Below are positions 7,331 through 20,929 of a DNA stretch of 64,000 nt, one piece after another (position 1 is the first letter of the stretch; each line of letters starts with the position of its first letter). The notes below the pieces were generated by a model, which did no database searches, was not told where the DNA came from, and saw nothing but the letters and a program-made list of their open reading frames with translations. This DNA is from a virus, in the IMG/VR virus record IMGVR_UViG_3300045988_087270, positions 1 through 64,000 of that record; one strand, 5' to 3'. The translations under genes and the position numbers were made by a program.

Positions 7331-7352
7331 TATTTTAAACATTTACAAATTT

Positions 7353-8906
7353 ATGGAACATTTAGTTCTTATTGGTGTTATTGCAGTTGCTATTATTGTA
7401 CTGCTTGTTATTATTGCTATAATGTATGTTAAGGCTCCTCCTTCGATGGCTTACATTCTTTCAGGTTTTCGTAAGGAGCCACGAGTACTTATCGGGGGTG
7501 GTGGAGTAAAAATTCCTGTACTTGAACGATTGGATAAAGTATATCTTGGTCAAGTAACAGTTGATGTTAAGACTTCACAGCCAGTTCCTACTCATGATTT
7601 CTTAGATGTAATGGTAGATGCTGTATGTAAAGTTAGGGTAAAACCTGATACAGAAGGCACTAGACTTGCAGCTAAGAACTTCTTAAATATGAATTCTGCT
7701 CAGATTGCCGCTCAGGTGAAAGACTCTTTGGAGGGTAATATGCGTGAAGTAGTAGGTTCTCTCGACTTAATTAAGATTAACACTGATAGAGATGCATTCT
7801 CTGATGAAATTCAGAAGAAGGCAGCTCCTGATATGGCTAAGTTAGGTCTTGAAATTTTGTCTTGCAATATTCAGAATATTACTGATGAGAAGGGTTTGAT
7901 ACGTGACTTGGGTGCTGATAATACAGCAGCTATTCAGAAAAATGCTAAGATTACTCGTGCTAATGCTGACAGAGATGTAGCTAAGGCTCAGGCTGAGGCT
8001 GATAATGAGGCTAATGAAGCACGAGTAAAAGCTGATACCATTATTGCTGAACGTAATAATGAATTAGCTATTAAGAAAGCTGAACTGAAGAGATTGTCTG
8101 ATATTAAGAAGGCTGAATCTGATGCTGCATATAAGATTCAGCAGCAGGAGCAGCAGAAGACTATTAATATCAAGACTGTAGATGCTGATATTGAAAAGAC
8201 TCGTAAGGAGCAGATCTTGTCTGAGGAGAAGATTAAGATTAAGCAGAATGAGTATCTTGCAGATGTAAATGCTAAGGCTGATGCTGATAAGTATCAGACA
8301 GAGATTGATGCTCAAGCTGCTTTGGAGAAGCAGAAGCGTGAAGCTGAAGCTGAGGCTTATAAGGCAGAGCAGATTGCTAAAGCTGTAAAGGCTAAGGCTG
8401 AAGCTAGTCGTTATTCTCAGGAGCAAGAAGCAGCAGGTATTCGTGCTAAGGGTGAAGCTGAAGCATACGCTACTCAGCAGACTTTAACTGCTGAAGCTGA
8501 AGGTACTAAGGCTAAACTTTTGGCAGAAGCTGAAGGTGTAAAGGCTAAGGGTCTTGCAGAAGCTGAGGCTATGCAGAAGAAGGCTGAAGCATACAGTAAG
8601 TATGGTTCTATTGCTGTAATTGACATGCTTTCTAAACTTAATGAGAAAGTTCTTCCTGATATGGCTAAGTATATTGCTGAGCCTATGAGTAAGATTGGTA
8701 ATATGACAGTTTATGGAACTAATGGTTCTGAAGCTTCTGGCATTTCTGGTAATGTACCTGCTATTATTAAGCAGACTCGTGACATTGTAAAAGATGCCAC
8801 GGGTGTAGATATGGCAGACATTATGAAGGCTAACACTATTGATGCTAAGGTTAACAAGAATGTTAACGTTAATGGTGACGTAGAGAACACCAATGTAAAT
8901 GTATAA
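7353..8906 (+). CDS. SPFH/band-7 (flotillin-like) membrane protein
   Basis: N-terminal TM helix, SPFH core (GGGVKIPVLERLDKV...VDVKT..), then a long Ala/Glu/Lys-rich coiled-coil region typical of flotillin/YqiK. Confidence 0.75.
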   Translation: MEHLVLIGVIAVAIIVLLVIIAIMYVKAPPSMAYILSGFRKEPRVLIGGGGVKIPVLERLDKVYLGQVTVDVKTSQPVPTHDFLDVMVDAVCKVRVKPDTEGTRLAAKNFLNMNSAQIAAQVKDSLEGNMREVVGSLDLIKINTDRDAFSDEIQKKAAPDMAKLGLEILSCNIQNITDEKGLIRDLGADNTAAIQKNAKITRANADRDVAKAQAEADNEANEARVKADTIIAERNNELAIKKAELKRLSDIKKAESDAAYKIQQQEQQKTINIKTVDADIEKTRKEQILSEEKIKIKQNEYLADVNAKADADKYQTEIDAQAALEKQKREAEAEAYKAEQIAKAVKAKAEASRYSQEQEAAGIRAKGEAEAYATQQTLTAEAEGTKAKLLAEAEGVKAKGLAEAEAMQKKAEAYSKYGSIAVIDMLSKLNEKVLPDMAKYIAEPMSKIGNMTVYGTNGSEASGISGNVPAIIKQTRDIVKDATGVDMADIMKANTIDAKVNKNVNVNGDVENTNVNV

Positions 8907-8920
8907 ACATTAAGTATCGC

Positions 8921-8950
8921 AGAGGGAGGGATAATCTCTCCCTCTTTTTC
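8921..8950 (+). terminator. intrinsic terminator
   Basis: agagggag...ctccctct 8-bp stem followed by TTTTT. Confidence 0.6.
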
Positions 8951-8967
8951 TAACTTTTAAAAATTTT

Positions 8968-11001
8968 ATGGAATACTTAGATTTTAGAAATCTTGTTACA
9001 GAAGCATGTAATAAGATGATTAGAGAGAACAAACATCTTTTCATTCTTGACACTCAAAAAGAGTTTTTATGGATGGCTTATATGGAATCTTTCCCTGAAG
9101 GAGCTGTACGTCAAGAATTTAACTGTGTAAATTGTAAACATTTCATTACTCGCTATGGAGCATTAGTCTCTATAGATGAGAATTATAAAATACATTCTTA
9201 CTGGGAGGATGTTCATGCTGAGGGAATATTTGCTAAAGTTGTAGACAATATGTTACAAGTGCTTAAAAATACTAGAATTAGAAATGCATTTGTTACAGAA
9301 GAGACTACAATGGGTTGTAAATGTAATCAGCAGATACTACCTTCTAAAGAAGTAATTACTTGGAATCATTTTTATGCTACTCCTACAAGTAATTTAATTA
9401 TGGATAAGTCTCAGACTCCAACATTTCGTGCAGGTGCTAAATCTTCACATGATGTATGGGTAAGAACTTTATCTGAAATTAATTATAATTCTGTACAAGC
9501 AGTATTAGACTTAATTGCAGATGATAATCTCTATAGAGGTGATACTTATCTGCGCCAAGTAAGTGCTTTAAAGACTGCTCTTGATATAATAGAGAATAAA
9601 CATTTGGAAGGTTTTGAGTTAGATAATTATGCTTGGATATCCTCTTGTATACTTCCTGATGCTGTAACACATATACTTAATAGTGCTATAGGTCAGCTTC
9701 TTAAAGATATAACTGATACTAACAACATTGAAAGTTCAGTTAAGAAATTTGAAGCTATGGTTGCTCCTTATAATTATAAGAGACCTAAAGGTATTATCGC
9801 CAAAACTCAGGTAGAAAATGCTTATAAAACTGTAGTAGAACTTGGTTATGAAGATTCTTTAGAGAGACGTCATGCTAAAGTAGAAGATATATCTATTGAA
9901 GATGTTATCTTTGTAAATAGAGAAACTCGTAAGAGAATGTTAGGAGGATTTGATTCTCTTATGAACGAAACTTCTAATACTAGCAAAGCTGCTACAGACT
10001 TTGAGAAAACTGCTATTCCAACAACTATGGAAGAGTTTCTTAATAATATTGTTTCTAATGCTAGTAAGCTTGAATTATTCTTTGACAATAAGTTAAATAA
10101 TAATTTAGTAACTCTTACTGCTCCAGTTAATAAAGAAGCTCCTTCTATGTTTAAATGGAATAATGGTTTTGCTTGGGCATATGATGGTAATATCTCTGAT
10201 GCTATTAAACAACGTGTTAAAGAAGTAGGAGGTAAAGTAGATGGTTATATGAGAATTTCTCTCCATTGGTATAATTACGATGATTTGGATTTGCATATGG
10301 AAAGTCCTTATGGACACATTCATTATGGTTATAAAGCAAATCTTCTTGATGTAGATATGAATGCCTGTGGAGGTAGCGTTTCTGCAGAACGTGAGCTTCC
10401 TAAGAAGTTCTCTCGTAATGCTGTAGAAAATATTATTTTCTCAGGAATTCCTAAAGCAGGTAAATATAAAGTATTTGTTAACAACTTCGCTAAAGTTGAG
10501 AATATTGATTTAGGATTTGAAGTAGAGGTAGAACTCAATGGAATTATTCATACTTATGTGTACGATAAAGATGTTCCTGGTAGAGCCAATGTCCCAGTAT
10601 TAGACTTTACTTCTAATGGACGTGAGGTTATCTTTACTAAGGAGTATTTAGGTAGTACTACAGCATCTAAAGAAGTTTGGGGAGTAAAGACTCAGAATTC
10701 TGTTGAAGTATCTGCTATATGCTTATCTCCAAATTACTGGGGAAATAATAAAGTAGGTGCTAAGCACTATTTCTTTATGCTGAAGGATTGTAAGAATCCA
10801 GATGCTGTTCGTGGGTATTTTAATGAGTATCTTAAAGACGAACTCACTAAGAATCATAAGAGAGTATTTGAAGTATTAGCATCTAAGGCTTTAACTCCTT
10901 ATAATGATAATCAGATGAGCGGTCTAGGATTTATAGCTACATCTCGTAACCAAATTATGGTTAGAGTAGATTCAGGTAAAATTTATAAAGTAAACATTTA
11001 A
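8968..11001 (+). CDS. large hypothetical protein (677 aa)
   Basis: Long ORF immediately after the SPFH gene; N-terminal Cys cluster (CVNCKHF...CKC); no family recognised. Confidence 0.55.
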   Translation: MEYLDFRNLVTEACNKMIRENKHLFILDTQKEFLWMAYMESFPEGAVRQEFNCVNCKHFITRYGALVSIDENYKIHSYWEDVHAEGIFAKVVDNMLQVLKNTRIRNAFVTEETTMGCKCNQQILPSKEVITWNHFYATPTSNLIMDKSQTPTFRAGAKSSHDVWVRTLSEINYNSVQAVLDLIADDNLYRGDTYLRQVSALKTALDIIENKHLEGFELDNYAWISSCILPDAVTHILNSAIGQLLKDITDTNNIESSVKKFEAMVAPYNYKRPKGIIAKTQVENAYKTVVELGYEDSLERRHAKVEDISIEDVIFVNRETRKRMLGGFDSLMNETSNTSKAATDFEKTAIPTTMEEFLNNIVSNASKLELFFDNKLNNNLVTLTAPVNKEAPSMFKWNNGFAWAYDGNISDAIKQRVKEVGGKVDGYMRISLHWYNYDDLDLHMESPYGHIHYGYKANLLDVDMNACGGSVSAERELPKKFSRNAVENIIFSGIPKAGKYKVFVNNFAKVENIDLGFEVEVELNGIIHTYVYDKDVPGRANVPVLDFTSNGREVIFTKEYLGSTTASKEVWGVKTQNSVEVSAICLSPNYWGNNKVGAKHYFFMLKDCKNPDAVRGYFNEYLKDELTKNHKRVFEVLASKALTPYNDNQMSGLGFIATSRNQIMVRVDSGKIYKVNI

Positions 11002-11013
11002 TAATTAACAACA

Positions 11014-11382
11014 ATGTACAAAGAAGCATTACAGAAAAAATTACGTTTTAAGACAAACAAGGGTATGATTTCTACAGAAGATTTGTTCGACTTATCTCTG
11101 CAGAATCTTAACACTTTAGCTATTATGCTGGATAAAAAGATCAGTGAGGCTCCTAAGAAGTCTTTCATTGAAGAGCTTTCAGCTGAAGAAAATGATGATG
11201 AACTTTGTTTCAGCATTGTAAAAGATGTAATTAATATTAAATTAAAGGCTCGTAAGGATAACATTGACAAAGCACAGGTTAATGCCCGTAACAAGCGTAT
11301 TGCTGAGCTTATTGCGAAGAAAGAGGATGAAGCTCTTGAGAGTAAATCTATTGAAGAACTTCGCGCTATGATTCAGAATTAA
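11014..11382 (+). CDS. hypothetical protein
   Basis: 122 aa ORF, acidic. Confidence 0.5.
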   Translation: MYKEALQKKLRFKTNKGMISTEDLFDLSLQNLNTLAIMLDKKISEAPKKSFIEELSAEENDDELCFSIVKDVINIKLKARKDNIDKAQVNARNKRIAELIAKKEDEALESKSIEELRAMIQN

Positions 11383-11506
11383 AATTTTTAAGATTTTATT
11401 TTTAGAAAAAAAATTCACAACTATAATAACCTCAGTAATAAGGAATACTTATTGAACGTTGTGAAACGTGAATTATAGTCGTGATTTAAAAGGAAACTCA
11501 ATCTTT

Positions 11507-11542
11507 GAGGGGACTCTACTGGGGAGTTCCCTCTTTTGTTTT
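11507..11542 (+). terminator. intrinsic terminator
   Basis: gaggg...ccctc stem followed by TTTTGTTTT. Confidence 0.5.
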
Positions 11543-11545
11543 ATT

Positions 11546-11767
11546 ATGACTAGCAAATTTAAATTGTATGAAAGAATTGTCTTAGACAATATCGAATTTA
11601 CAATTACTAATATTAGTGTAATTCCACAATGTGCTCAATATATAGATAAAAAATTTGTCTATTTATTTGATTTTAATTATTCTTTAAGTTATGGGGATTA
11701 CAAGATGGAACTTACAGAGACAGAAATAAATAATTTAATTAAAAACAATAAAGTAAACAAAAATTAA
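11546..11767 (+). CDS. hypothetical protein
   Basis: Internal ATG (MTSKFKLYERIV...) of track ORF 11468-11767; the upstream part overlaps the terminator hairpin. Confidence 0.35.
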   Translation: MTSKFKLYERIVLDNIEFTITNISVIPQCAQYIDKKFVYLFDFNYSLSYGDYKMELTETEINNLIKNNKVNKN

Positions 11768-11937
11768 CTTTTATAATTTTATAATTAAATTATATTTATA
11801 ATACAAACGGGTTAGGACTGTTATAGTTACGAATTTCACGATTAACCTGATTCCCAGATGTATATATCTATAAATATACTGACTTTTTTGAAGATTTCAA
11901 CATGAAATTGGAAGGGTCGTACTTACCTTAGTACACA

Positions 11938-11971
11938 GAACCGAGAATTGGGAAGTTCTCGGTTCATTTTT
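11938..11971 (+). terminator. intrinsic terminator
   Basis: gaaccgaga...tctcggttc stem followed by TTTTT. Confidence 0.55.
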
Positions 11972-12046
11972 AAATTTTATTAAAATTATATTTTGAATAA
12001 TAAAATTTAGATTTATAATAGTCAATACGATAAAAAAGAATAAAAA

Positions 12047-12202
12047 ATGAAGAAATTACTTGTACTTAGTGTATTATTTACACTCTTAAGTTGTTCTACT
12101 GGTTCAAATAATTCAGTAAATTCAACTTCAAATGATTCTATTAATGTTGATACTACAGTAGTTGATACTACTGAAGTTGATTCAACTGTATGTCCTGATT
12201 AA
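12047..12202 (+). CDS. small lipoprotein (51 aa)
   Basis: MKKLLVLSVLFTLLSCS signal peptide with lipobox; Ser/Thr/Asp-rich tail; the stop lies inside hairpin gtcctgattaatcaggac. Confidence 0.4.
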   Translation: MKKLLVLSVLFTLLSCSTGSNNSVNSTSNDSINVDTTVVDTTEVDSTVCPD

Positions 12203-12213
12203 TCAGGACTTCC

Positions 12214-12294
12214 GTCTAGATAGCCAAGTGGTCAACGGCAGCAAGCTGTTAACTTGCCCCGAAAGGTTCCTAGGTTCGAATCCTAGTCTAGGCG
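12214..12294 (+). tRNA. type-II tRNA (Ser-like body, G73) with anticodon loop cuGUUaa
   Basis: Acceptor gtctaga/tctaggc, T-arm ctagg-ttcgaat-cctag, 3-bp D-stem with 11-nt D-loop, 12-nt variable arm, anticodon stem gcaag/cttgc; positions 34-36 read GUU. Confidence 0.55.
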
Positions 12295-12302
12295 CAATGA
12301 TA

Positions 12303-12365
12303 TATGCCTCTTATTTCTAAGGTTCATTACCTTCTCGAAAAGAAATGTGTACACAAGAGGCGCCT
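12303..12365 (+). other. structured RNA-like element (7-bp closing stem gcctctt/aagaggc, internal hairpins)
   Basis: Nested stems atttct/agaaat, aagg-ttcatta-cctt (T-arm-like) and palindrome gtgtacac, immediately 5' of the next tRNA. Confidence 0.3.
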
Positions 12366-12442
12366 GGAGTATTAAGCCCTGTTGGTAAGGGAACTAGACT
12401 GTCACTCTAGTAAAACTAAGGGTTCGAGTCCCTTATATTCCG
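12366..12442 (+). tRNA. tRNA-Asp(GUC), non-canonical D-arm
   Basis: Acceptor ggagtat/atattcc (one G-U), anticodon stem ctaga/tctag with loop cuGUCac, T-arm aaggg-ttcgagt-ccctt; the D-stem pairs only ccc/ggg. Confidence 0.5.
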
Positions 12443-12587
12443 CAAATAATGGAGAGCACCTAGCGTTTAACTGGGTAGTTGTTAGAGGTAGCGGTGGCAA
12501 TCCACGAGTATGCCTGATAGCTCAATATATTATTAGAATATGGTCACGATAGTTTGCCCGTCTAATGCCATATTTGCCTTTATTTAA

Positions 12588-12659
12588 GCTTCAATAGCAC
12601 AGTGGTAGTGCAGCATTCTTGTAAAATGCAGGTCGTAGGTTCAAATCCTACTTGAAGCT
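12588..12659 (+). tRNA. tRNA-Thr(UGU)
   Basis: Canonical cloverleaf: acceptor gcttcaa/ttgaagc, D-stem gcac/gtgc, anticodon stem gcatt/aatgc with loop cuUGUaa, T-arm gtagg-ttcaaat-cctac. Confidence 0.8.
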
Positions 12660-12668
12660 CTCTAATAT

Positions 12669-12740
12669 CGTGGGTTGTAGCAGTGGTAGCTTGTTTGTCT
12701 CATAAGCAAACGGTCATCGGTTCGAGTCCGATACCCACAA
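12669..12740 (+). tRNA. tRNA-Met or Ile2 (CAU)
   Basis: Acceptor cgtgggt/acccaca (1:72 C-A mismatch), anticodon loop cuCAUaa, T-arm atcgg-ttcgagt-ccgat. Confidence 0.65.
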
Positions 12741-12746
12741 CAAAAT

Positions 12747-12830
12747 TGTCTAGTATGTGAAGTGGTCAAACATGACTGACTGTAAATCAGCTGCTATTTA
12801 GCTTCGGGAGTTCGAATCTCTCCTAGACAA
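12747..12830 (+). tRNA. tRNA-Tyr(GUA), type II
   Basis: Acceptor tgtctag/ctagaca, anticodon loop cuGUAaa, long variable arm gctatttagc, T-arm gggag-ttcgaat-ctctc. Confidence 0.7.
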
Positions 12831-12850
12831 CTAATTAAAAAATAAATAAT

Positions 12851-13327
12851 ATGGAAAAAACTTTTAATTATCAATCTGATGCAAATTTCTATGATAAAAA
12901 GGATTTTATTATAGCTGTTTTAAAAAGAAAAATAAATAGTTTTAAAGAGTATGATGCTAAAAGAAAAAAGCATTATGCTGGACTAGAACAAAAAATTGGA
13001 GAATTAGAATCCTATATAGATGAATTAGAGAACGGACTTAGTATAGAATCTTTAAGTAATAAAATTCAATCTTTAGAAAATGAGATTGAGAAACAGAATC
13101 TTAAAATTAGAGAGTTAAGAGCTAAAGTTAATATATCTTTATTTGATGATACTAAGTCTTTTAGAGAATTAGAATCTATGGCAAATAATTTAAAAGACTT
13201 TAATAGCATGAAATTAGCTATTAAAGATCTTAGAAAACGGCTTAAAGATAACAAAAAAACTATATCTGATTTAATATATGAATTAACACAAGCTAAACTT
13301 AAAATAAAACAATTAACTGGAGAGTAA
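12851..13327 (+). CDS. coiled-coil hypothetical protein
   Basis: 158 aa; heptad-rich LENE/IEKQNLKIRELRAK. Confidence 0.5.
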   Translation: MEKTFNYQSDANFYDKKDFIIAVLKRKINSFKEYDAKRKKHYAGLEQKIGELESYIDELENGLSIESLSNKIQSLENEIEKQNLKIRELRAKVNISLFDDTKSFRELESMANNLKDFNSMKLAIKDLRKRLKDNKKTISDLIYELTQAKLKIKQLTGE

Positions 13328-13337
13328 TCTCCAATTT

Positions 13338-13411
13338 GGGGCGTCGGCTCAAGTGGTCAGCACCTGCTTTGCACGCAGGCATTCTTAGGAGTTCGAATCT
13401 CCTACGCTCCA
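13338..13411 (+). tRNA. tRNA-Ala(UGC)
   Basis: Acceptor ggggcgt/acgctcc with the G3:U70 identity pair, anticodon stem cctgc/gcagg with loop uuUGCac, T-arm aggag-ttcgaat-ctcct. Confidence 0.8.
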
Positions 13412-13431
13412 CTATTAAATTAAATATTTTT

Positions 13432-13770
13432 ATGAAAATAACTATTGATACAGACAATTTAGAAACATTAAAGTATAAAACTGAAGATGTTCCTATTTTA
13501 ATGAAGACTTTCCAGCAGTTAATGAATAAATTAATGTATGAAGTAATAGGAAATTATTATTCTGTAGATGATGTTCCTAAGGATGCTCCAAAATGGGTAA
13601 AAGAAGAACTACTTAATGTAGGAAAAACCTGTTATGTGGATGGACATATGGATAAAGAATATGTTTTTAAAGGTATCCAAGAAACATTTGAGGATTATTA
13701 TTATATATTAGAAAATAATAATAAAAAAATTTCTTATTCTTCATGCGTTGGAAAGATATCTTATAAATAA
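13432..13770 (+). CDS. hypothetical protein
   Basis: Track ORF 13336-13770 begins inside tRNA-Ala; the real start is probably the internal ATG (MKITIDTDNL...). Confidence 0.5.
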   Translation: MKITIDTDNLETLKYKTEDVPILMKTFQQLMNKLMYEVIGNYYSVDDVPKDAPKWVKEELLNVGKTCYVDGHMDKEYVFKGIQETFEDYYYILENNNKKISYSSCVGKISYK

Positions 13771-13825
13771 TGTAATGATATTTCATATAACATAAAAAGC
13801 TAAATCAGAGTAATTACCTGACTAT

Positions 13826-13853
13826 GGGAGTTTTACTGTTCTCCCGCTTTTTA
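13826..13853 (+). terminator. possible intrinsic terminator
   Basis: gggag...ctccc stem followed by GCTTTTT. Confidence 0.35.
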
Positions 13854-13888
13854 TGTAAATTTTAAACAGTAATTAAAAATAGTACAAT

Positions 13889-14605
13889 ATGAAGAAATTT
13901 AAAGAATGCACCAATGAAGAAATTAAATTAGCTATATCAAATAGCGAAAATTTAAATTAGGTTTGTAAGTAGTTATTATGTACCGATAATACTTACAATA
14001 GAAATAAAATAAGAGATTTTATTAAATCAAATAATTTAAGTATAGCACATTTTAAAACTAGATATTCTAAGGAATCTTACGATAAAAATCCTAAAGTATG
14101 TAAATACTGTGGAAAAATTATTCCTTATGAAAAGCGAGTTAATGATTTTTGCAATCATTCTTGTGCAACTAGTTATAATAATATTGGAGTAGTACGCAAT
14201 AAACCATCTTTACCTACTTATTCACTCTGTTTGAACTGTGGAAAAGAAATTACTAAAGGAAATAAATATTGTAATAATACGTGTAAAGCAGAATATGAAA
14301 GAAAGGAATATATTAAAAGATGGAAAGCAGGGGAAGAATCAGGTATTATTGGAAAAGATAAAATAGCTACAGCAGTAAAAATATATTTGAGAGAAAAATT
14401 TAATAATTCTTGCCAAAAATGTGGGTGGAATTAGGTAAATTATTTCACAGGTTTAGTACCACTGCAAATTCATCATATTGATGGTAACTGTTTAAATAAT
14501 CAAGAATTCAATCTTTAGCTGCTATGTCCTAATTGTCATGCCTTAACGGAAAATTTTGGCTCTAGAAATAAAAATTGTACTAGAATTGATAAAAGAAAAC
14601 GATAA
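13889..14605 (+). CDS. HNH homing endonuclease with four in-frame TAG codons (13958, 13970, 14432, 14516)
   Basis: Single frame from ATG 13889 to TAA 14603-14605. Zn-ribbon pairs (CKYCG, CLNCG, CQKCG) and an intact HNH motif (HHIDGN...NLxLLCPNCHA) lie downstream of the third TAG. The only internal stops are TAG. Confidence 0.55.
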
Positions 14606-15007
14606 TAACAAAGCTCTAAAATACTAGTTACAGGAGCAACGTAACTTATAGGGTGCCTCTCAACGATGCATACTCGCCTATTAGGTGTCGTAGAACCTAC
14701 GAACTGGAATGGTTCGATGTTTTTTGCATTCCTACAGAATCCTAAATAATAAAAATAGAGACCATAAGATTGTCTCTAACAGGGGCAATTTACCTGGGAT
14801 TCTTAATTTTTTAAACTCTCCTCCTAGATACTTTATAAGTTAAACTTTAAATTTGATTTATTATGATGAAAATTTTAAAAAAAACTTTAAAAGCCATTAA
14901 GAAGGGTTGGATTTGGTATGCTAATCAGTATTGTAGATTATACATGCCTCCAATTATTTAATCTTATTATTTAATTTGTAAGTACCAAAGGGGTACTTAC
15001 TGATGTT

Positions 15008-15036
15008 GGGTCGGGCAATAAGCTCGACTTTTTTTG
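15008..15036 (+). terminator. intrinsic terminator
   Basis: ggtcg...cgact stem followed by TTTTTTT; preceded by a perfect 9-bp hairpin at 14978-15000. Confidence 0.5.
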
Positions 15037-15037
15037 T

Positions 15038-15451
15038 TTGTATATATTTTTAAAAATTTTATATATTATGAAAAAATTTAAATTTATATTAATATTATTA
15101 TGTTTTTTATGTACTAAAAGTATTGCTCAAACTATAACTCACGTAACTCTTACTTGTTATCAGCCAGTAAAGAGTCAGTGTAATAAAGAACCATTAGTTA
15201 CAGCTGATGGTTCTAAAATTAACTTGCACCATTTAAAAAGAGGTAGTATTAAGTGGTGTGCAATTTCTCGTGATTTACTCTATTTATTTCCAAAGAATAA
15301 ACCTAAAAAAGTATTTATAGAAGGTTTTGGAATATATGAAGTTAAAGATGTTATGAATAAAAGACATAAACATCGTATTGATATATTAATACATCCAAAG
15401 AACTCTAAACGAATTAGTATAGAACATGTAAAAGTTAAAATTCTTAAATAA
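15038..15451 (+). CDS. secreted protein, possible 3D/DPBB-type lytic transglycosylase
   Basis: Signal peptide MKKFKFILILLCFLCTKSIAQ; VTLTCYQP...TADGSKI...AISRDLL...IEGFGIYEVKDVM resembles the RlpA/3D fold. The family assignment is tentative. Confidence 0.45.
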   Translation: MYIFLKILYIMKKFKFILILLCFLCTKSIAQTITHVTLTCYQPVKSQCNKEPLVTADGSKINLHHLKRGSIKWCAISRDLLYLFPKNKPKKVFIEGFGIYEVKDVMNKRHKHRIDILIHPKNSKRISIEHVKVKILK

Positions 15452-15873
15452 TGTGTTTATATTTACGAGATAAAGTAGAACGCATAGCTACTTCTAATAT
15501 ATATGTATGGAAAGCCCTAATAAGTTATGATGGGCACGGCTATTATTCACCAGTATTTAATTATAGGTACGACTTAGGAGAAACTTATAGATCATACTTA
15601 GATGGAAATAAGAATAGTATATGTGTATCTATGGGACTCCATTCTTTTGGATATAATATAAGTATATTAAGTTCTTATGCTGGAGAATATGAATGTTATG
15701 GAAGTTCATATAATCGTTTTGATATTAAAGAACCTATTGATACTATAGGATTATTCATAATTCCTGAAGGAAGTTATTATTATACTGATGGATATTTTTA
15801 TGCAAGTGATACTTTAAAATTATTAAGAACTCTTCCAATAAATGAATTTTTTAATTATATGATGAACAGATGA
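15451..15873 (+). CDS. hypothetical protein
   Basis: 140 aa, Tyr/Gly-rich. Confidence 0.45.
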   Translation: MCLYLRDKVERIATSNIYVWKALISYDGHGYYSPVFNYRYDLGETYRSYLDGNKNSICVSMGLHSFGYNISILSSYAGEYECYGSSYNRFDIKEPIDTIGLFIIPEGSYYYTDGYFYASDTLKLLRTLPINEFFNYMMNR

Positions 15874-15981
15874 CATTAAAAGAAACTGTAGAATCCTTTG
15901 ATGGTAAAAAGAAAGGGGCTAGTAAGTTAATCTTATTAGTCCCTATTTTTGTATTAGCATTACTAATATTTATTAATTTAA

Positions 15982-16182
15982 ATGGTTAAGTATAAAAAGT
16001 GTGGAGCATTACGAATTAGAATAGATGGTAGTAAATGTATTGTAGTAAATCTTAAATTACCATCTATTACTAGTCGTAGTACTTCATATTTAGATTTTTT
16101 AAGAGAAACTATTTTAGATAGTAATAAGCAAGAGTTTAATAATGCTGTAGAAACAATCTGTACTAGGATTAAATCTTTATAG
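15982..16182 (+). CDS. hypothetical protein
   Basis: 66 aa ORF. Confidence 0.35.
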   Translation: MVKYKKCGALRIRIDGSKCIVVNLKLPSITSRSTSYLDFLRETILDSNKQEFNNAVETICTRIKSL

Positions 16183-16212
16183 TATTATATTATCTTACTT
16201 ATCATAACGCAG

Positions 16213-16431
16213 ATGATTATTAGTAGAAAATTATTAATATTATTAAACATGTTTATTGATTTAACATTAGACAATAACAATATTAATAGAAGATATTTAA
16301 TAGCCGTAGATGATATTTCCTTAATAGAAGAGGTTGGTGAAAGCTCTTATGTTATATTAAAAGGTGGAAGCTGCTTATCTGTGAAGGAATCTATTGATTA
16401 TATAAAATCTTTATTAGACAATGTCAAATGA
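16213..16431 (+). CDS. hypothetical protein
   Basis: 72 aa ORF. Confidence 0.4.
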   Translation: MIISRKLLILLNMFIDLTLDNNNINRRYLIAVDDISLIEEVGESSYVILKGGSCLSVKESIDYIKSLLDNVK

Positions 16432-16645
16432 AAAAGTAAAAATTGATTTTGGATGTGGAACTTCACTTATTCCAGGATCTTTCCTGATTTTATTGATAGC
16501 TAAAGTTCTTTTACATTCAGATATCTCGTGGTGGATTGTTTTTAGTCCACTCTTAATAGGAATAGGACTTATAATTATATTATGTATTATATGGTTAATT
16601 TTATATTGTATGACTGATGGAAGATATAACAGATATCATAAGTGA
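16421..16645 (+). CDS. small membrane protein
   Basis: Two hydrophobic helices. Confidence 0.4.
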   Translation: MSNEKVKIDFGCGTSLIPGSFLILLIAKVLLHSDISWWIVFSPLLIGIGLIIILCIIWLILYCMTDGRYNRYHK

Positions 16646-16681
16646 CCTAGATGATTATTGGAATGATCTAGAAGCAGACTA

Positions 16682-16867
16682 TTGGAATTCTTTAGAAAAA
16701 GAAGGACTATGAATACAGATATTTTTGAGATAAAAGCAGATAAAGCCTGGGAAACATTAATTACAGAATCTCCTATATATCTATTAATGTCTAGTAGAGA
16801 GTTAGAAAAATGTAAAAACTTTTTTATCCTAGGATATTATACAGCAATTAGAGATTCTCACTTATGA
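16682..16867 (+). CDS. hypothetical protein
   Basis: 61 aa ORF. Confidence 0.35.
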   Translation: MEFFRKRRTMNTDIFEIKADKAWETLITESPIYLLMSSRELEKCKNFFILGYYTAIRDSHL

Positions 16868-17091
16868 ATTATCAAAAAGCTAGTCAAGTATCTTTATTAG
16901 TAGAATTAATTAACTCTTCTGAAATAGTGTCTAAAGAATATTCTGAAGCACGTATACCAGAAGATTTAATTTCTAATATAAAGATATTATGTATAAAAGA
17001 TAGTAGTTTTAGAAGAAGTTTCTATAATATAATGCAGAAACTTGGAAAGAAATATTTAGATATTTATATAAATACATTATCAGAGTTATGA
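16864..17091 (+). CDS. hypothetical protein
   Basis: 75 aa; ATGA overlap. Confidence 0.4.
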   Translation: MNYQKASQVSLLVELINSSEIVSKEYSEARIPEDLISNIKILCIKDSSFRRSFYNIMQKLGKKYLDIYINTLSEL

Positions 17092-17585
17092 ACTTAATTT
17101 GGTTAAAATTAATAAAGCGAATCTTAACTCATAAGTATTATGTTGCTAAATATTGCTTTCAAATAGGACTATATTGGCAAGGTATTACTCATGATTTATC
17201 TAAATTTAGTTTCACAGAATTTTCAGGAGCTAAAGAAAGATATGATTTCCAATATAATAAAACCGCACTTACTTGTAGTAAAGTCCGAGACTTAACTACA
17301 GGAAAAATTTTAGAAATTAAGATAGATAATCCTGAAGTAATTAGTGATAAACCTCTATTAATTCTTGATGATTTATGTGATGGTGGAGGGACCTTCTGCG
17401 GTATTGCTAAAGCATTTAATGCTTTAGGTGTTCCTAAAGAACGCTTAAATATTGCAGTTACTCATATGGTAAATCCTAAAGGTATAGAAAATCTATCTAA
17501 CAATTTTAATAAAGTTTGGTTTACTAATTCTTACAAAGATTGGGATAATCTTCCTAAGAATGTTACAATGATTAAGGTTGTCTAA
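17088..17585 (+). CDS. phosphoribosyltransferase (type I PRTase)
   Basis: PRPP-binding motif PLLILDDLCDGGGT. Confidence 0.6.
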   Translation: MNLIWLKLIKRILTHKYYVAKYCFQIGLYWQGITHDLSKFSFTEFSGAKERYDFQYNKTALTCSKVRDLTTGKILEIKIDNPEVISDKPLLILDDLCDGGGTFCGIAKAFNALGVPKERLNIAVTHMVNPKGIENLSNNFNKVWFTNSYKDWDNLPKNVTMIKVV

Positions 17586-17726
17586 TGTATATTTTAGGAC
17601 TTATTATAACTATTGTTTTGGTAATAATTATAATTGATCCAAGATTAGATATTACAGATAATCAATGTATATTATGGTATTCAAATTTTGAAGGTGAACG
17701 TTGTTATTTAATACTTTGGAATAAAA

Positions 17727-18053
17727 ATGATCATTATAAATAAAGATGAATTAAATTCCGACCTAGTTCATGATATCAATTTAGAGTTAGAAGCATTATT
17801 TACAGATAATAGAACTTGGGAAATTAGTTCTAGTACTGGAAATTTAGACGATGCTTCAGATGTACGAATTGTTATTAAAGGTGTGGGACATTGTTATATT
17901 TCCACAATAGGTGATACTGAAGAGTATGTTAGAGATTTATTAAATAGCTATAGAAAAGCTCATAATTTTGATACTTTTTGTATGTCTACAACGTATTTTG
18001 ATCCTGAAAAGAACGGAATAGTATTTGAATATGCGGATTACATATCTTTATAA
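17727..18053 (+). CDS. hypothetical protein
   Basis: 108 aa ORF. Confidence 0.45.
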   Translation: MIIINKDELNSDLVHDINLELEALFTDNRTWEISSSTGNLDDASDVRIVIKGVGHCYISTIGDTEEYVRDLLNSYRKAHNFDTFCMSTTYFDPEKNGIVFEYADYISL

Positions 18054-18055
18054 TC

Positions 18056-18469
18056 ATGTTACAGATTTATACTGACGGTGCTTATAAATCTTCTATTGAC
18101 CAAGGAGGTATTGGAATAGTGTGGATGAAAGATGATAAAGTATTTAAAAAATACTCCAAAGGCTTTAAACATACTACTAATAATAAAATGGAATTAATTG
18201 CAATGTTATGTGCTTTTAAATCTATTAAAACCCCAATGGATGAAATAGAATTTATAAGTGATAGTCAATATGTATTAGGATGTCTTACTATGGGTTGGAA
18301 GAAAAAGAAAAATGTAGAACTCTGGAATATTTTAGATAAAGAATATGAGAGAGTTAAATCTTTAGTAAAAAATATTAAATTTACCCACGTTAGAGGACAT
18401 CAAGATTGTTTTGGTAATAATTTAGCGGATGAGTTAGCTAGTAATGCTAGCTTAGAATTATTAGAGTGA
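18056..18469 (+). CDS. rnhA: ribonuclease H (type 1)
   Basis: IYTDGA...NNKMELIA...SDSQYV...HVRGHQ...NNLADELA catalytic residues in order. Confidence 0.7.
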   Translation: MLQIYTDGAYKSSIDQGGIGIVWMKDDKVFKKYSKGFKHTTNNKMELIAMLCAFKSIKTPMDEIEFISDSQYVLGCLTMGWKKKKNVELWNILDKEYERVKSLVKNIKFTHVRGHQDCFGNNLADELASNASLELLE

Positions 18470-18687
18470 TGCATTTAGTTTTATCAATAATAATTGTTTT
18501 TGCTTGTATAGCTATTTATGTTGGATCTGCATTTGCTGTTATAGATAAATGGACTAAAAATGATGTTTCTTTTAATATAGTATCAATATTAATATTAGTA
18601 TGTCCAATTATAAATACATTATTAGCGTTGTATTATGGTTATCCTGAGTTTAAAGAAACTTTAAGTAAAATTTTTAAAAATAATTAA
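18466..18687 (+). CDS. small membrane protein
   Basis: Two TM helices. Confidence 0.4.
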   Translation: MMHLVLSIIIVFACIAIYVGSAFAVIDKWTKNDVSFNIVSILILVCPIINTLLALYYGYPEFKETLSKIFKNN

Positions 18688-18689
18688 TT

Positions 18690-18869
18690 ATGGCTAAAGA
18701 AATTGTAAAAGTAACAGTAGACACTATTACTATTTATCGTACTACTGGAGGTAAAATTGCGGTAAAACGTAGTGATAGATTAAAACCAAGTAGATATTTC
18801 GATGATATTAAAGCTGCTCGTAAGTATGCTGACGAGCACTTTGAAGGTAATGTCTCAGAGTCTCTCTAA
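18690..18869 (+). CDS. small hypothetical protein (59 aa)
   Basis: ATG ORF below the track cutoff immediately after the previous stop. Confidence 0.35.
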   Translation: MAKEIVKVTVDTITIYRTTGGKIAVKRSDRLKPSRYFDDIKAARKYADEHFEGNVSESL

Positions 18870-19145
18870 GACATTTTCATTTCTAGAGTGATAAATTACT
18901 CATGATTCTATATTTAGAAGTTTGTAGGCTATTCTAGACATGTCTATGACTAAATTATGGTATTTACTTAGATAATTTTAATATTACACAGATGATAAAT
19001 TTTCTTTTAATTTTCAATTCTAGTTAAAATGAAGTATAAAGCAAAGCTTGAAAGACTTCGTCAGAAGCAGGTATGGTGGGATAAGCTTCCTCAATCAGTA
19101 AAGAATGCAACAACAAGACCTGGTGGTATTGGATCAAAGTAATCT

Positions 19146-19463
19146 ATGATAATCAAAGAATCTGATTTTGAATTAAAATCTTCAACAAGTGATGAAAGTT
19201 GCCCTCATTGGGATTTATATATTATAAAGACCATTAATGCTAAATCTAAAACTAGAGAGTCTAGAGAGGAACTTACCTTAGTAGGATATGGATTAACCTT
19301 ATCTGGAGCTATGGCATCAATTGCTAGATATAGAGTAGCTAAAGCTAATCCTGAAAAGGCTTTAACTATGCAGCAATATTTAGATTCCTATACAAAAGAA
19401 CTTCATAGATTATACGACATTGTAGGGGAAACTCCTAACAATACTACTTTGATGGAGGAATGA
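19146..19463 (+). CDS. hypothetical protein
   Basis: 105 aa. Confidence 0.45.
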   Translation: MIIKESDFELKSSTSDESCPHWDLYIIKTINAKSKTRESREELTLVGYGLTLSGAMASIARYRVAKANPEKALTMQQYLDSYTKELHRLYDIVGETPNNTTLMEE

Positions 19464-19729
19464 TTAAATCAATTCCTATAACTACTTGGAGAGACGAACA
19501 TCATAGAGACGTTACAGTTTCTAAGATGTTCGTCTATGAACTTACAGCATATGCTCACTATAAAGATAGAAAAGAGTTGTTAGGTAGTAAGTTTATATCT
19601 TCGAGTAACCCTCTTAAAGAGAGAGTACAAGTTACTAAAAAGATTGGGTATAGAATTATAAAATCCATTGATTTAGTATCAGCTCCTCTAGATTATATTA
19701 TTAATAATTCTAAATTTAAAAAATTATGA
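19460..19729 (+). CDS. hypothetical protein
   Basis: 89 aa; ATGA overlap. Confidence 0.45.
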   Translation: MIKSIPITTWRDEHHRDVTVSKMFVYELTAYAHYKDRKELLGSKFISSSNPLKERVQVTKKIGYRIIKSIDLVSAPLDYIINNSKFKKL

Positions 19730-20148
19730 CAAACGCTAAGCAGAAATTCGTAGATTACAGAGAAGGTAGTTTTATAGACTTTGAAGGTAAAGATCATTAC
19801 TTTGTAGTATGTGCTGTTCTTAAAGAGAATACTATACTTGGAAATCTTACTAGAATTCTTAGTTTTGGAGTATCTTTCTGTAATCCGGTAGATAAACATA
19901 ATAATGAACTTGGTAAGAAGATTGCTTATGGTAAGAGTGTTAGTGATAGAAATACTAATGTATTAATGGGCAGAGCAGGACTTCTAAATATTGATACTGT
20001 AAAATACATACTCGATAATGAAGTTAATCATGTAAAACAATATCCTGAGCAGTATAGTGTGGCATATGCTAAAGCTAAAGAAAAATATGAAAAAACTAAA
20101 GCTTTAGTCCAAAAAACAGCTTTATATAATAAAGTAGTAGCAGATTAA
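19726..20148 (+). CDS. hypothetical protein
   Basis: 140 aa. Confidence 0.5.
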   Translation: MTNAKQKFVDYREGSFIDFEGKDHYFVVCAVLKENTILGNLTRILSFGVSFCNPVDKHNNELGKKIAYGKSVSDRNTNVLMGRAGLLNIDTVKYILDNEVNHVKQYPEQYSVAYAKAKEKYEKTKALVQKTALYNKVVAD

Positions 20149-20721: not shown

Positions 20722-20929
20722 ATACCTACATAAAGGATACTGATGGCAAGAAATTTAAATTTCCAGATAGAGATTGTAAGAATTGTAAAAGATATAAATG
20801 CTTAGTAAATATGGACATGCTTAAATGTAATTTTGCTAAGTATGGATGCAGAAATTATAATCCTAGATAACTAAAATTACTAAAAATTGATAAATAATAT
20901 TTACGCCTTGAAAAAGGATTACCATATTA

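What the first reader, a model, noticed from the sequence alone, without database searches (positions are those of the whole stretch)
13889..14605. HNH endonuclease gene whose only internal stops are four TAG codons
From ATG 13889 to TAA 14603 one frame encodes a Zn-ribbon HNH nuclease with an intact catalytic motif (HHIDGN...NLxLLCPNCHA) downstream of the stops. Four TAGs interrupt it, and there is no TAA or TGA. In a ~30% GC genome random nonsense mutations should mostly give TAA. Four of four TAG with the downstream frame and motif preserved argues that TAG is read through, via a suppressor tRNA or amber recoding, or that the gene came recently from a TAG-recoded phage.
Basis: partly seen in the sequence, partly recalled or inferred. 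Interest (0 to 1): 0.85.

Follow-up and report, generated by a model that had tools for sequence, protein, structure and literature searches.

The report
Amber-coded HNH gene in recoded phage
The four TAG "stops" in this HNH nuclease gene are almost certainly read as glutamine, because the window is the standard-code early half of a ~175-kb gut phage that rewrites TAG as an amino acid in its late genes and carries its own amber-suppressor tRNA; this is a known kind of phage biology, not a new one.

Summary
Window 13889-14605 (+) is a 238-codon HNH/zinc-ribbon gene with in-frame TAG at codons 24, 28, 182 and 210, no TAA or TGA, and a TAA stop.

The gene is under purifying selection across and beyond the TAGs (dN/dS 0.14-0.20). 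Three of the TAGs recur in relatives. TAG-free homologues have CAA/CAG (Gln) at the motif position NLQLLCPNCH.

The window's own 175,361-bp contig continues about 875 bp past the window into late genes with 46, 40 and at least 34 in-frame TAGs. In late genes TAG is the main Gln codon. That contig also encodes a tRNA(CUA) about 15.5 kb upstream of the window. The tRNA is split by a 223-nt group-I-like intron and followed by an HDV-like (theta-type) ribozyme candidate.

Inside the otherwise TAG-free early arm, only homing-endonuclease-like genes carry in-frame TAG (3 of 5, against 0 of about 82 others). The HNH gene is missing from a 94%-identical phage, so it is a mobile, free-standing homing endonuclease gene. 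It is probably translated only after the code switch.

TAG-to-Gln phages, and recoded endonucleases in early regions, are already published (Borges et al.; Yutin et al.). This is a new member of a known kind.

The parts
13889..14605 (+). HNH / zinc-ribbon (treble-clef) endonuclease gene, 238 codons plus TAA. In-frame TAG at 13958, 13970, 14432 and 14516 is read as Gln.
   Evidence: Pfam HNH and DUF2116 both pass. dN/dS is 0.14-0.20 against three homologues. TAGs are conserved in relatives.
13958..13960 (+). TAG codon 24. This is the most widely retained TAG in the family (window, L002-L006, L211-L214, L286).
13970..13972 (+). TAG codon 28. It is TAG in L002 and L212 and CAA in L211, a Gln-synonymous exchange under code 15.
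14432..14434 (+). TAG codon 182. It is GAA in L002-L006, TAG in L211, L212 and L215, and mostly Glu or Lys in TAG-free homologues.
14516..14518 (+). TAG codon 210, inside the catalytic-motif segment NL-Q-LLCPNCH. About 40 TAG-free homologues have CAA or CAG here.
13342..14610 (+). Approximately 1.27-kb segment present here but replaced by about 80 bp (a different tRNA-Ala) in the 94%-identical phage MT835492.1. It holds a variant tRNA-Ala (13338-13412), a 112-aa ORF (13432-13770) and the HNH gene, and is the presumed mobile unit.
12214..12831 (+). tRNA array #1 (Asn, Asp, Thr, Met, Tyr) directly upstream. It contains no CUA anticodon.
5185..6237 (+). LAGLIDADG_3 homing-endonuclease-like gene with one in-frame TAG at 5890. 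The TAG is conserved in MT835492.1, and the gene was called as one 350-aa protein on the window's own contig.
40955..41407 (+). HNH-like ORF identified by motifs only (CxxC...HH...N...CANCH; no Pfam hit), with one in-frame TAG at 41105. It lies inside a ~2-kb intervening sequence that splits the nrdD-like gene.
1..64000 (+). Standard-code-compatible 'early' arm holding replication and nucleotide-metabolism genes, a sigma factor, PolA, Thy1 and tRNAs. Apart from the three endonuclease-like genes above, no credible gene has an in-frame TAG.

Best explanation
The window is the early, standard-code-compatible arm of a ~175-kb human-gut phage that uses genetic code 15 (TAG = Gln) for its late genes. 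The HNH gene is a free-standing homing endonuclease gene inserted next to a tRNA-Ala in the early arm, but it is written in the late dialect (4 TAG, 3 CAA, 0 CAG for Gln).

Early in infection, under the host's standard code, ribosomes would stop at codon 24 and make only a 23-residue peptide. Once the phage's own amber-suppressor tRNA(CUA) is available, all four TAGs are read as Gln and the full 238-residue nuclease is made. That tRNA must first be matured by removal of a group-I-like intron from its anticodon loop, and probably by 3' cleavage by an adjacent HDV-like ribozyme.

Shown: the recoding of the genome, the suppressor gene, selection on the full-length frame, Gln at the aligned positions, and the mobility of the gene. 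Inferred: that suppression is temporally late, that the TAGs therefore delay the nuclease, and that the intron and ribozyme are active.
For: (1) Own genome. L010 is identical to window 52629-64000 at 11,371 of 11,372 bases and continues into minus-strand genes with 46, 40 and at least 34 in-frame TAGs and no other internal stops.

(2) The syntenic relative MT835492.1 (~94% nt identity) shows standard-code ORF coverage of 0-0.3 from 63.7 to 121.6 kb, against about 1.0 with TAG as sense. Its genes carry up to 128 TAGs, and late genes end in TAA (18) or TGA (3).

(3) Gln codon usage. Late genes: TAG 551, CAA 305, CAG 54 (own genome: 120, 48, 10). Early genes: 0, 266, 108. HNH: 4, 3, 0.

(4) The HNH frame is conserved. 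TAG is kept at codons 24, 28 and 210 in five contigs carrying the 94%-identical protein. dN/dS is 0.14, 0.20 and 0.16 against L002, L211 and L212, and downstream of TAG-182 dN is 0.06-0.10 against dS of 1.0-1.6.

(5) Gln assignment. Codon 210 is CAA or CAG in about 40 homologues that have no in-frame TAG. Codon 28 is CAA in L211. Gln is the most enriched residue (3.9-fold) at TAG-aligned columns. TAG-to-Gln was validated by metaproteomics in crAss-like phages (PMC9523058 abstract).

(6) Suppressor. tRNA(CUA) scores 63.6 bits against Rfam tRNA in relatives. In the window's own contig its exons lie at k119_26407:14395-14429 and 14653-14689.

(7) Only endonuclease-like genes in the early arm carry TAG: 3 of 5 against 0 of ~82, Fisher p=9e-5.

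(8) The gene is absent at the same site in MT835492.1.

(9) Precedent: Borges et al. report an intron endonuclease in an early gene of Agate phages that is preferentially recoded and predicted to be delayed until late infection.
Against: There are no expression or proteomic data, so the timing of suppressor expression is inferred only from the near-absence of in-frame TAG in early genes.

Two other endonuclease-like genes in the same arm (51594-52799 and 57551-58249) have no TAG, so TAG is not a universal rule for such genes.

TAG enrichment could be passive. It could reflect drift in any gene not needed early, or codon usage inherited through transfer among recoded phages, rather than a selected timer.

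The suppressor's amino-acid identity is not established from the tRNA itself: its overall similarity to the phage's tRNA-Lys (0.69) and tRNA-Gln (0.67) is equal within noise.

At codon 182 most TAG-free homologues have Glu or Lys rather than Gln.

The intron and ribozyme matches are below Rfam gathering scores (17.4 against 50, and 21.3 against 44).
Confidence: 0.85

Rival explanations
1. The gene is a decaying pseudogene: four independent nonsense mutations in a dispensable selfish gene, with no full-length product.
For: Homing endonuclease genes often degenerate. CAG-to-TAG is a single C-to-T transition, which is favoured in an AT-rich genome. TAG is used as a true stop by about 12 early genes.
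Against: There are no TAA or TGA codons and no frameshift in 238 codons. P(4 of 4 TAG) is about 0.004-0.007. dN/dS is 0.14-0.20 including downstream of the TAGs. The same TAGs are retained across contigs and in homologues of 57-79% identity. The genome demonstrably decodes TAG in hundreds of late-gene positions.
Confidence: 0.03
2. TAG is read as Gln, but the TAGs in this gene have no regulatory meaning. They reflect neutral drift or horizontal inheritance of late-type codon usage in a mobile gene that circulates among TAG-recoded phages and is simply not needed early.
For: The HNH family with TAG at the motif Gln occurs in at least 13 IMG/VR contigs and several sub-lineages. The TAG fraction of Gln codons (4 of 7) equals the late-gene average of about 60%. 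TAG positions turn over between homologues (codon 28 TAG/CAA; codon 182 TAG/GAA). Two endonuclease genes in the same arm lack TAG.
Against: Non-endonuclease early-arm genes have no in-frame TAG at all, so there is selection against TAG in that arm from which this gene is exempt or oppositely selected. TAG at codon 24 is retained in homologues whose synonymous sites are saturated (dS of 1 or more). That is only weak evidence: about 0.6^6 = 0.05 under late-type usage.
Confidence: 0.35
3. TAG read-through is provided by the host (a natural amber suppressor or a TAG-recoded host), not by the phage.
For: No CUA tRNA lies in the window. Published surveys detect suppressors in only about 40% of TAG-recoded phage genomes.
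Against: The window's own contig and at least 15 related contigs encode a CUA tRNA. About 85 early-arm genes avoid in-frame TAG and some end in TAG, which fits a standard-code host.
Confidence: 0.03

Closest known systems
Genetic code 15 (TAG to Gln) gut phages with standard-code early genes and recoded late genes (Ivanova et al. 2014; Yutin et al. 2021, PMC7886860; Borges et al. 2021/2022, doi 10.1101/2021.08.26.457843; Peters et al. 2022, PMC9523058)
   Same: In-frame TAG is concentrated in structural and late genes. TAA and TGA are kept as stops. The phage encodes tRNA(CUA). The early replication block is readable in the standard code.
   Different: Nothing essential differs. This lineage is not a named or cultured phage: GenBank holds only two unannotated relatives, MT835492.1 and MT835470.1.
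[quoted passage not shown]
   Same: A homing endonuclease located in the early region is preferentially written with the reassigned stop codon, so it is predicted to be made only after the code switch.
   Different: In Agate phages the codon is TGA (Trp) and the endonuclease is intron-encoded. Here the codon is TAG (Gln) and the flagged HNH gene is free-standing beside a tRNA gene. The window's second HNH-like ORF (40955-41407) is the closer analogue, since it lies inside an intervening sequence of nrdD.
Zeta-group crAss-like phages (Yutin et al. 2021; PMC12386605)
   Same: Genome of 145-192 kb. Forward block with nucleic-acid metabolism genes, PolA, tRNAs and several homing endonucleases. Reverse block with virion genes and a DGR. 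TAG or TGA recoding. [quoted passage not shown]
   Different: Membership is not demonstrated. The major-head-protein homologue hit no named Crassvirales record, and no terminase or RNAP phylogeny was made.
Free-standing homing endonucleases in phage tRNA clusters, such as T4 SegB (from my own knowledge, not checked here)
   Same: The endonuclease gene sits next to tRNA genes, is present or absent between close relatives, and the neighbouring tRNA sequence differs between the allele with the gene and the allele without it.
   Different: SegB is a GIY-YIG enzyme in a standard-code phage. Cleavage specificity is untested here.
Theta (minimal HDV-like) ribozymes abutting suppressor tRNAs in recoded gut phages (Kienbeck et al. 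2024, PMC10879173)
   Same: A 57-nt element starts at the base after the 3' end of the CUA tRNA. The tRNA has no encoded CCA. P1, P2, P3 and P1.1 are fully complementary.
   Different: It scores below the gathering threshold of the only related Rfam model (21.3 against 44 bits). It was not compared with the authors' own motif, and it is absent from some relatives.

Membership tests
Genetic code 15 (TAG=Gln) phage | Many genes with multiple in-frame TAGs but otherwise intact long frames | tested here: met
   Own contig: 46, 40 and at least 34 TAGs in three late genes with no other internal stops. Relative: up to 128 TAGs per gene, and ORF coverage of 0-0.3 under the standard code against about 1.0 with TAG as sense.
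Genetic code 15 (TAG=Gln) phage | TAA and TGA retained as terminators | tested here: met
   Late frames of at least 200 codons end in TAA (18) or TGA (3). The HNH gene ends in TAA.
Genetic code 15 (TAG=Gln) phage | Phage-encoded suppressor tRNA with anticodon CUA | tested here: met
   Intact in L196-L199, L201, L202 and L208 (Rfam tRNA 63.6 bits). In the window's own contig the two exons lie at L289:9630-9664 and 9888-9924.
Genetic code 15 (TAG=Gln) phage | TAG aligns with Gln in standard-code homologues | tested here: met
   Codon 210 is CAA or CAG in about 40 TAG-free HNH homologues. TAG and CAA exchange at codon 28. Gln is enriched 3.9-fold at TAG columns. The less conserved codons 24, 28 and 182 are not informative on their own.
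Genetic code 15 (TAG=Gln) phage | Suppressor tRNA has Gln identity | tested here: inconclusive
   It shares U1-A72 and the D-arm sequence TATGGTGTAATGG with the phage tRNA-Gln(UUG). However, overall identity is no higher to Gln (0.67) than to Lys (0.69).
Genetic code 15 (TAG=Gln) phage | Peptide evidence for Gln at TAG | not testable with these tools
   This needs proteomics. It was done for other code-15 phages in PMC9523058.
HNH endonuclease (Pfam PF01844) | Profile match above the curated cut-off | tested here: met
   22.9 bits against a cut-off of 21.4 with TAG translated as Q. PHROG HNH families match down to E=4.5e-24.
HNH endonuclease (Pfam PF01844) | Beta-beta-alpha-metal core residues (His general base, Asn, distal His) and flanking CxxC pairs | tested here: met
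   H195/H196, N208, H217, C175xxC178 and C213xxC216 are present, and invariant or nearly so among 31 homologues.
HNH endonuclease (Pfam PF01844) | Nuclease activity | not testable with these tools
   This needs biochemistry.
Free-standing homing endonuclease gene | Presence/absence polymorphism at one site between closely related genomes | tested here: met
   Window ~13342-14610 is replaced by about 80 bp in MT835492.1, with flanks 92-95% identical.
Free-standing homing endonuclease gene | Not embedded in an intron or intein | tested here: inconclusive
   The gene lies between tRNA-Ala and the next ORF, and no Rfam intron hit reached the gathering score anywhere in the window. Divergent introns would be missed.
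Free-standing homing endonuclease gene | Cleaves the allele that lacks the gene | not testable with these tools
   This needs a cleavage assay on the tRNA-Ala region of MT835492.1.
Zeta-group crAss-like phages | Genome size and two-block architecture with recoding, introns/inteins and a DGR | tested here: met
   Contigs of 175-183 kb. Forward early arm and reverse late arm. nrdD intervening sequence and intein. Thy1 intein in L011. DGR-type RT in L107.
Zeta-group crAss-like phages | Phylogenetic placement by TerL, MCP or RNAP | tested here: inconclusive
   tblastn with the MCP homologue against 50,697 phage records hit only two unannotated 'Bacteriophage sp.' records. No tree was made.
Group I intron (in the suppressor tRNA) | Rfam RF00028 gathering score | tested here: not met
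   17.4 bits (E=0.038) in L289 and 16.8 bits (E=0.086) in L195, against a gathering score of 50. Both are full-length model alignments.
Group I intron (in the suppressor tRNA) | U at the 5' splice site forming a U.G pair in P1; terminal G; precise absence in relatives leaving an intact gene | tested here: met
   The exon ends CUCU and pairs with GGAG nine nt into the insert. The insert ends in G. Inserts of 0, 219-223 or 1003 nt occur at the same site.
Theta / minimal HDV-like ribozyme | Cleavage-site G1 within +/-1 nt of a tRNA 3' end, with the nested double-pseudoknot helices | tested here: met
   It starts at L289:9925, the base after the tRNA. P1 is 7 bp, P2 8 bp, P3 3 bp and P1.1 2 bp, all complementary.
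Theta / minimal HDV-like ribozyme | Covariance-model score at threshold | tested here: not met
   RF02682 scores 21.3 bits (E=0.09) against a gathering score of 44. The authors' own descriptor was not available.

The most novel reading that the evidence does not exclude
The TAGs in the endonuclease genes are a selected translational timer, and the timer is gated by RNA processing. The amber suppressor becomes functional only after a mobile group I intron splices out of its anticodon loop (between U35 and A36) and a theta-type ribozyme trims its 3' end. The phage's code switch, and with it the production of homing endonucleases and virion proteins, would then be set by ribozyme kinetics. I found no report of a group I intron inside a phage suppressor tRNA in the library searched. 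Such an intron would also explain part of the 'missing suppressor' problem in recoded phages.
Probability: 0.3. Interest if true: 0.6.

Novelty: new member of a known kind. Interest (0 to 1): 0.35.

Why it matters
For annotation, this window and its genome must be translated with a mixed code: table 11 for the early arm and table 15 for the late arm and for three endonuclease genes. Otherwise the HNH gene is called a pseudogene, the late half looks non-coding, and in the other direction code-15 callers fuse neighbouring early genes that truly end in TAG (seen in L209).

Biologically, it adds a TAG/HNH example to the published idea that recoded stops keep homing endonucleases silent until late infection.

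The side finding could matter more. The suppressor tRNA is interrupted by a mobile intron and is therefore invisible to tRNA finders. That offers a concrete, testable reason why surveys detect suppressors in only about 40% of TAG-recoded phages.

Tried and rejected
(1) Global TAG recoding of the window. Rejected: ORF coverage barely changes with TAG as sense, and 12 of 87 standard ORFs of at least 90 codons end in TAG.

(2) A suppressor in the window. ARAGORN and Rfam find six and five tRNAs, none with CUA.

(3) The ARAGORN 'tRNA-Stop (tta)' in the upstream array as the suppressor. Rejected: it has a mismatched anticodon stem and U37, Infernal reads it as a tRNA with a 15-nt insertion in the anticodon loop, and it contains no CTA.

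(4) tRNAs with 6- or 8-nt anticodon loops as suppressors. No consistent CUA.

(5) Walking through the tail-fibre end of the late arm found no tRNAs.

(6) Reaching the window's own suppressor locus through the 119-aa protein cluster failed. It succeeded through a 93-aa neighbour whose longest contig had the right length.

(7) Isotype of the suppressor by similarity to the phage's own tRNAs. Uninformative.

(8) Other TAG-interrupted frames (1048-1803, 1764-2531, 15982-16431, 58250-58714). These were judged to be adjacent genes or non-coding stretches fused by read-through, not TAG-containing genes.

(9) Rfam on the 1003-nt insert of the suppressor tRNA gave no hit.

(10) Assigning the lineage to named phages. 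Only two unannotated GenBank records match.

(11) The first HNH family scan was biased towards CAA/CAG at codon 210 by its search pattern. This was corrected with a TAG-specific pattern scan.

Full report
**1. The observation**

Window 13889-14605 on the + strand translates to 238 codons ending in TAA. It has in-frame TAG at codons 24, 28, 182 and 210 (bases 13958, 13970, 14432, 14516) and no TAA or TGA. With TAG read as Q, the protein passes the Pfam cut-offs for HNH (22.9 against 21.4 bits) and for the DUF2116 treble-clef zinc ribbon (29 against 26.8). It also matches PHROG HNH families down to E=4.5e-24. One TAG sits inside the motif NL-Q-LLCPNCH.

The window is 29.2% GC. A random frame of this length and composition lacks TAA and TGA with P=8.4e-8. 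If the four stops were independent nonsense mutations, all four being TAG has P of about 0.004-0.007.

**2. The window as a whole uses the standard code**

Treating TAG as sense hardly raises ORF coverage in the window. Twelve of 87 standard ORFs of at least 90 codons on the + strand end in TAG, usually followed within 0-12 codons by TAA or TGA. Six tRNAs lie just upstream of the HNH gene, and none has a CUA anticodon. Taken alone, the window would suggest a pseudogene.

**3. The genome the window belongs to is TAG-recoded**

A window protein (62629-63711) is encoded exactly on ena:ERZ27261028:k119_26407, a contig of 175,361 bp. The fetched stretch (L010) matches window 52629-64000 at 11,371 of 11,372 bases. 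About 875 bp beyond the window's end, that contig enters minus-strand genes of 1551, 773 and more than 3400 codons. These carry 46, 40 and at least 34 in-frame TAGs and no other internal stop.

The syntenic GenBank relative MT835492.1 (121.6 kb, human faeces, ~94% nt identity) shows the same pattern. From 63.7 kb to its end, ORF coverage is 0-0.3 under the standard code and about 1.0 with TAG as sense. Single genes carry up to 128 TAGs. Late genes end in TAA (18) or TGA (3).

TAG is the main Gln codon in late genes:

| Gene set | TAG | CAA | CAG |
|---|---|---|---|
| Late genes, MT835492.1 | 551 | 305 | 54 |
| Late genes, own genome (L010) | 120 | 48 | 10 |
| Early genes, window | 0 | 266 | 108 |
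| HNH gene | 4 | 3 | 0 |

The HNH gene therefore has late-type usage. The database's gene calls on the window's contig were evidently made with TAG as sense.

**4. The HNH frame is functional and TAG stands for Gln**

More than 2,500 homologues exist, many of exactly 238 residues. The 94%-identical protein P0001 is encoded on ten contigs. In the five examined, its DNA has TAG at codons 24, 28 and 210.

dN/dS against three homologues of 94%, 79% and 74% identity is 0.14, 0.20 and 0.16. Downstream of TAG-182, dN is 0.06-0.10 against dS of 1.0-1.6.

The 'Q' in database proteins may itself come from code-15 translation, so I counted codons in DNA. About 40 more distant homologues have no in-frame TAG at all and have CAA or CAG at codon 210. 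L211 has CAA at codon 28 where the window has TAG. Over all TAG columns of the family, Gln is the most enriched residue in TAG-free members (3.9-fold), followed by Glu (2.8-fold). That tally is noisy. A scan for the motif with TAG found 13 viral contigs in several HNH sub-lineages.

**5. The suppressor tRNA**

Walking outward through relatives in IMG/VR found a second tRNA array upstream of the window. Beyond it, on the late-gene strand, lies a tRNA with anticodon CUA: TCTCCTATGGTGTAATGGTTAGCACAGAAGACTCTAAATCTTTTAGCCAGGGTTCGAATCCTTGTGGGAGAA. It scores 63.6 bits against Rfam tRNA.

I reached the window's own contig at this locus through a 93-aa neighbouring protein. There the tRNA is in two pieces, L289:9630-9664 and 9888-9924 (contig 14395-14689, about 15.5 kb upstream of window base 1 on the circular map). 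ARAGORN does not call it.

- **The insert.** It is 223 nt long, follows U35 of the anticodon and ends in G. A GGAG nine bases inside it can pair with the exon's CUCU, with a U.G pair at the splice site. It gives a full-length but sub-threshold match to the group I intron model (17.4 bits, E=0.038, gathering score 50).
- **Polymorphism.** Relatives have no insert, a 219-223-nt insert, or a 1003-nt insert at exactly this site. The 1003-nt insert encodes its own HNH protein, which has no TAG.
- **The ribozyme candidate.** Directly after the tRNA's 3' end lies a 57-nt element. Its P1, P2, P3 and P1.1 helices are perfectly complementary, and it gives a weak HDV-ribozyme match (21.3 bits, E=0.09, gathering score 44). 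This is the context published for theta ribozymes.
- **Isotype.** It could not be settled from sequence similarity.

**6. Why this gene**

I went through every + strand frame of at least 100 codons delimited by TAA/TGA and containing TAG. Only three credible genes in the 64-kb early arm have in-frame TAG:

- the HNH gene (four TAGs);
- a LAGLIDADG_3 gene at 5185-6237 (one TAG, conserved in the relative);
- an HNH-like ORF at 40955-41407 (one TAG), inside a ~2-kb intervening sequence of the nrdD-like gene.

Two further endonuclease-like genes have none: GIY-YIG/NUMOD at 51594-52799 and LAGLIDADG_2 at 57551-58249. That makes 3 of 5 endonuclease-like genes against 0 of about 82 others (Fisher p=9e-5). 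The relative also has a GIY-YIG gene with five TAGs inserted between its tRNA-Met and tRNA-Tyr.

The HNH gene, a 112-aa ORF and a divergent tRNA-Ala occupy a site where MT835492.1 has only a different tRNA-Ala. This is the pattern expected of a free-standing homing endonuclease gene.

**7. Mechanism**

- **Shown:** the genome decodes TAG in late genes, it encodes a CUA tRNA, the full-length HNH frame is under selection, and the gene is mobile.
- **Inferred:** early genes avoid TAG because the suppressor is absent early. Under that condition the HNH mRNA yields only a 23-residue peptide until the suppressor matures, so the nuclease is made late.

The alternative is that the TAGs are neutral, inherited by a gene that moves among recoded phages. 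My data cannot exclude this. I put it at roughly one third, within the overall conclusion that TAG is translated.

**8. Comparison with what is known**

TAG-to-Gln recoding with standard-code early genes is established, and it has been validated by metaproteomics in crAss-like phages (PMC9523058). Borges et al. explicitly describe an intron endonuclease in an early gene of Agate phages that is preferentially recoded (TGA) and predicted to be delayed until late infection.

The genome's size, two-block layout, recoding, DGR and density of introns and inteins resemble Zeta-group crAss-like phages. I did not establish membership.

**9. Verdict**

It is a new member of a known kind, of modest interest. 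The most novel element is incidental: an intron-split, ribozyme-flanked suppressor tRNA. I did not find this reported in the library searched.

Noticed in passing
L289:9630-9924 (= ena:ERZ27261028:k119_26407:14395-14689, the window's own contig, outside the window); also L290, L195, L207: The amber-suppressor tRNA(CUA) gene is split after anticodon base U35 by a 219-223-nt group-I-like intron, with a U.G pair in P1, a terminal G and Rfam Intron_gpI at 17 bits (below threshold). tRNA finders miss it. Relatives L196-L199, L201, L202 and L208 have the uninterrupted gene.
   Followed up: partly
L203, L205, L206 (e.g. L205:2892-3966, minus strand): At the same site in the suppressor tRNA, these relatives carry a 1003-nt insert encoding a 268-aa HNH endonuclease. 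That gene has no in-frame TAG, unlike the HNH gene of the finding. Rfam gives no intron hit for this insert.
   Followed up: partly
L289:9925-9981; also L196, L197, L199, L202, L208, L290: A 57-nt HDV-like (theta-type) ribozyme candidate begins at the base after the suppressor tRNA's 3' end. P1 (7 bp), P2 (8 bp), P3 (3 bp) and P1.1 (2 bp) are all complementary. RF02682 scores 21.3 bits, below threshold. The element is absent in L195, L198, L201, L203, L205 and L206, where the next gene's ATG follows the tRNA directly.
   Followed up: partly
L097:2885-2966 and 3396-3480 (tRNA array upstream of the window in relatives); also L096, L099, L100, L104, L106, L204, L208: Two paralogous tRNA-like genes have 9-15-nt insertions in the anticodon loop. 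ARAGORN calls one of them 'tRNA-Stop (tta)' with a long variable arm, while Infernal places the extra bases in the anticodon loop. They resemble the 'enigmatic' short tRNA introns reported in Lak phages.
   Followed up: partly
L097:5486-5558, L100:4333-4406, L096:4063-4135, L106:2862-2934: A conserved tRNA (Rfam 48-52 bits) has an anticodon loop of 6 or 8 nt whose sequence varies between relatives (CGTTGA, CGTAGA, CGTAAA, CTAGGTAA). No anticodon can be assigned.
   Followed up: no
L207:18967-19350; L097:12038-12371; L096, L098, L099, L103: Relatives encode a phage tmRNA (Rfam 54 bits against a gathering score of 47; tag peptides ending ...YAIAA or ...YQAAA) at a position corresponding to about window 4.5-4.9 kb. 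The window itself has no match to it.
   Followed up: partly
window 37624-39393 and ~41409-42805, with the intervening ~39394-41408: An anaerobic ribonucleotide reductase (NrdD-like) gene is split by a ~2-kb intervening sequence. That sequence carries a 318-aa ORF (39652-40608) and the HNH-like ORF with a TAG. In MT835492.1 the gene is continuous at this site but carries a LAGLIDADG intein elsewhere (residues ~407-746). No Rfam intron hit, and the exact exon junction was not resolved.
   Followed up: partly
window 13338-13412: The tRNA-Ala(UGC) next to the HNH gene has the G3.U70 identity pair but only a 3-bp D stem, and it falls below Rfam's tRNA gathering score. It differs strongly from the canonical-looking tRNA-Ala at the same site in the HNH-less relative MT835492.1. 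This may be a cleavage-immune variant carried along with the endonuclease gene.
   Followed up: partly
MT835492.1:12551-13201 (L007): The relative has a GIY-YIG endonuclease gene with five in-frame TAGs inserted between tRNA-Met and tRNA-Tyr. In the window these two tRNAs are only 5 bp apart (12741/12747).
   Followed up: partly
L209:2197-2949 and 2946-3677 (= window 1051-1803 and 1800-2531): On the window's own contig the database gene calls, made with TAG as sense, fuse neighbouring early genes that really end in TAG. Examples are 110 aa + 136 aa, and 75 aa + spacer + 99 aa. Single-code annotation therefore errs in both directions on this genome.
   Followed up: yes
L107:1485-2759 (late arm of relative IMGVR_UViG_3300001528_000174): A reverse transcriptase with a YADD motif lies next to tail-fibre-like genes, which suggests a diversity-generating retroelement. 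It contains 3 in-frame TAGs.
   Followed up: no
L195:6389-6473: A RAGATH-1 hammerhead ribozyme (Rfam 75 bits against a gathering score of 56.3) lies about 4 kb from the suppressor tRNA locus in one relative.
   Followed up: no
L011:6223-8151 and 2290-3309: In a near-identical strain (~96-97% nt identity in the matching segments), the Thy1 gene carries an intein, and a LAGLIDADG_3 gene sits between two PolA fragments. The window's copies are not interrupted in that way. Mobile elements turn over rapidly between strains.
   Followed up: no
proteins P0290 and P0304: The small proteins flanking the suppressor tRNA occur with identical sequence on about 940 to at least 1000 public contigs. One copy is labelled as from a 'Bacilli bacterium' MAG. 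The lineage is very common in gut metagenomes, and the MAG label is a possible but weak host hint.
   Followed up: no
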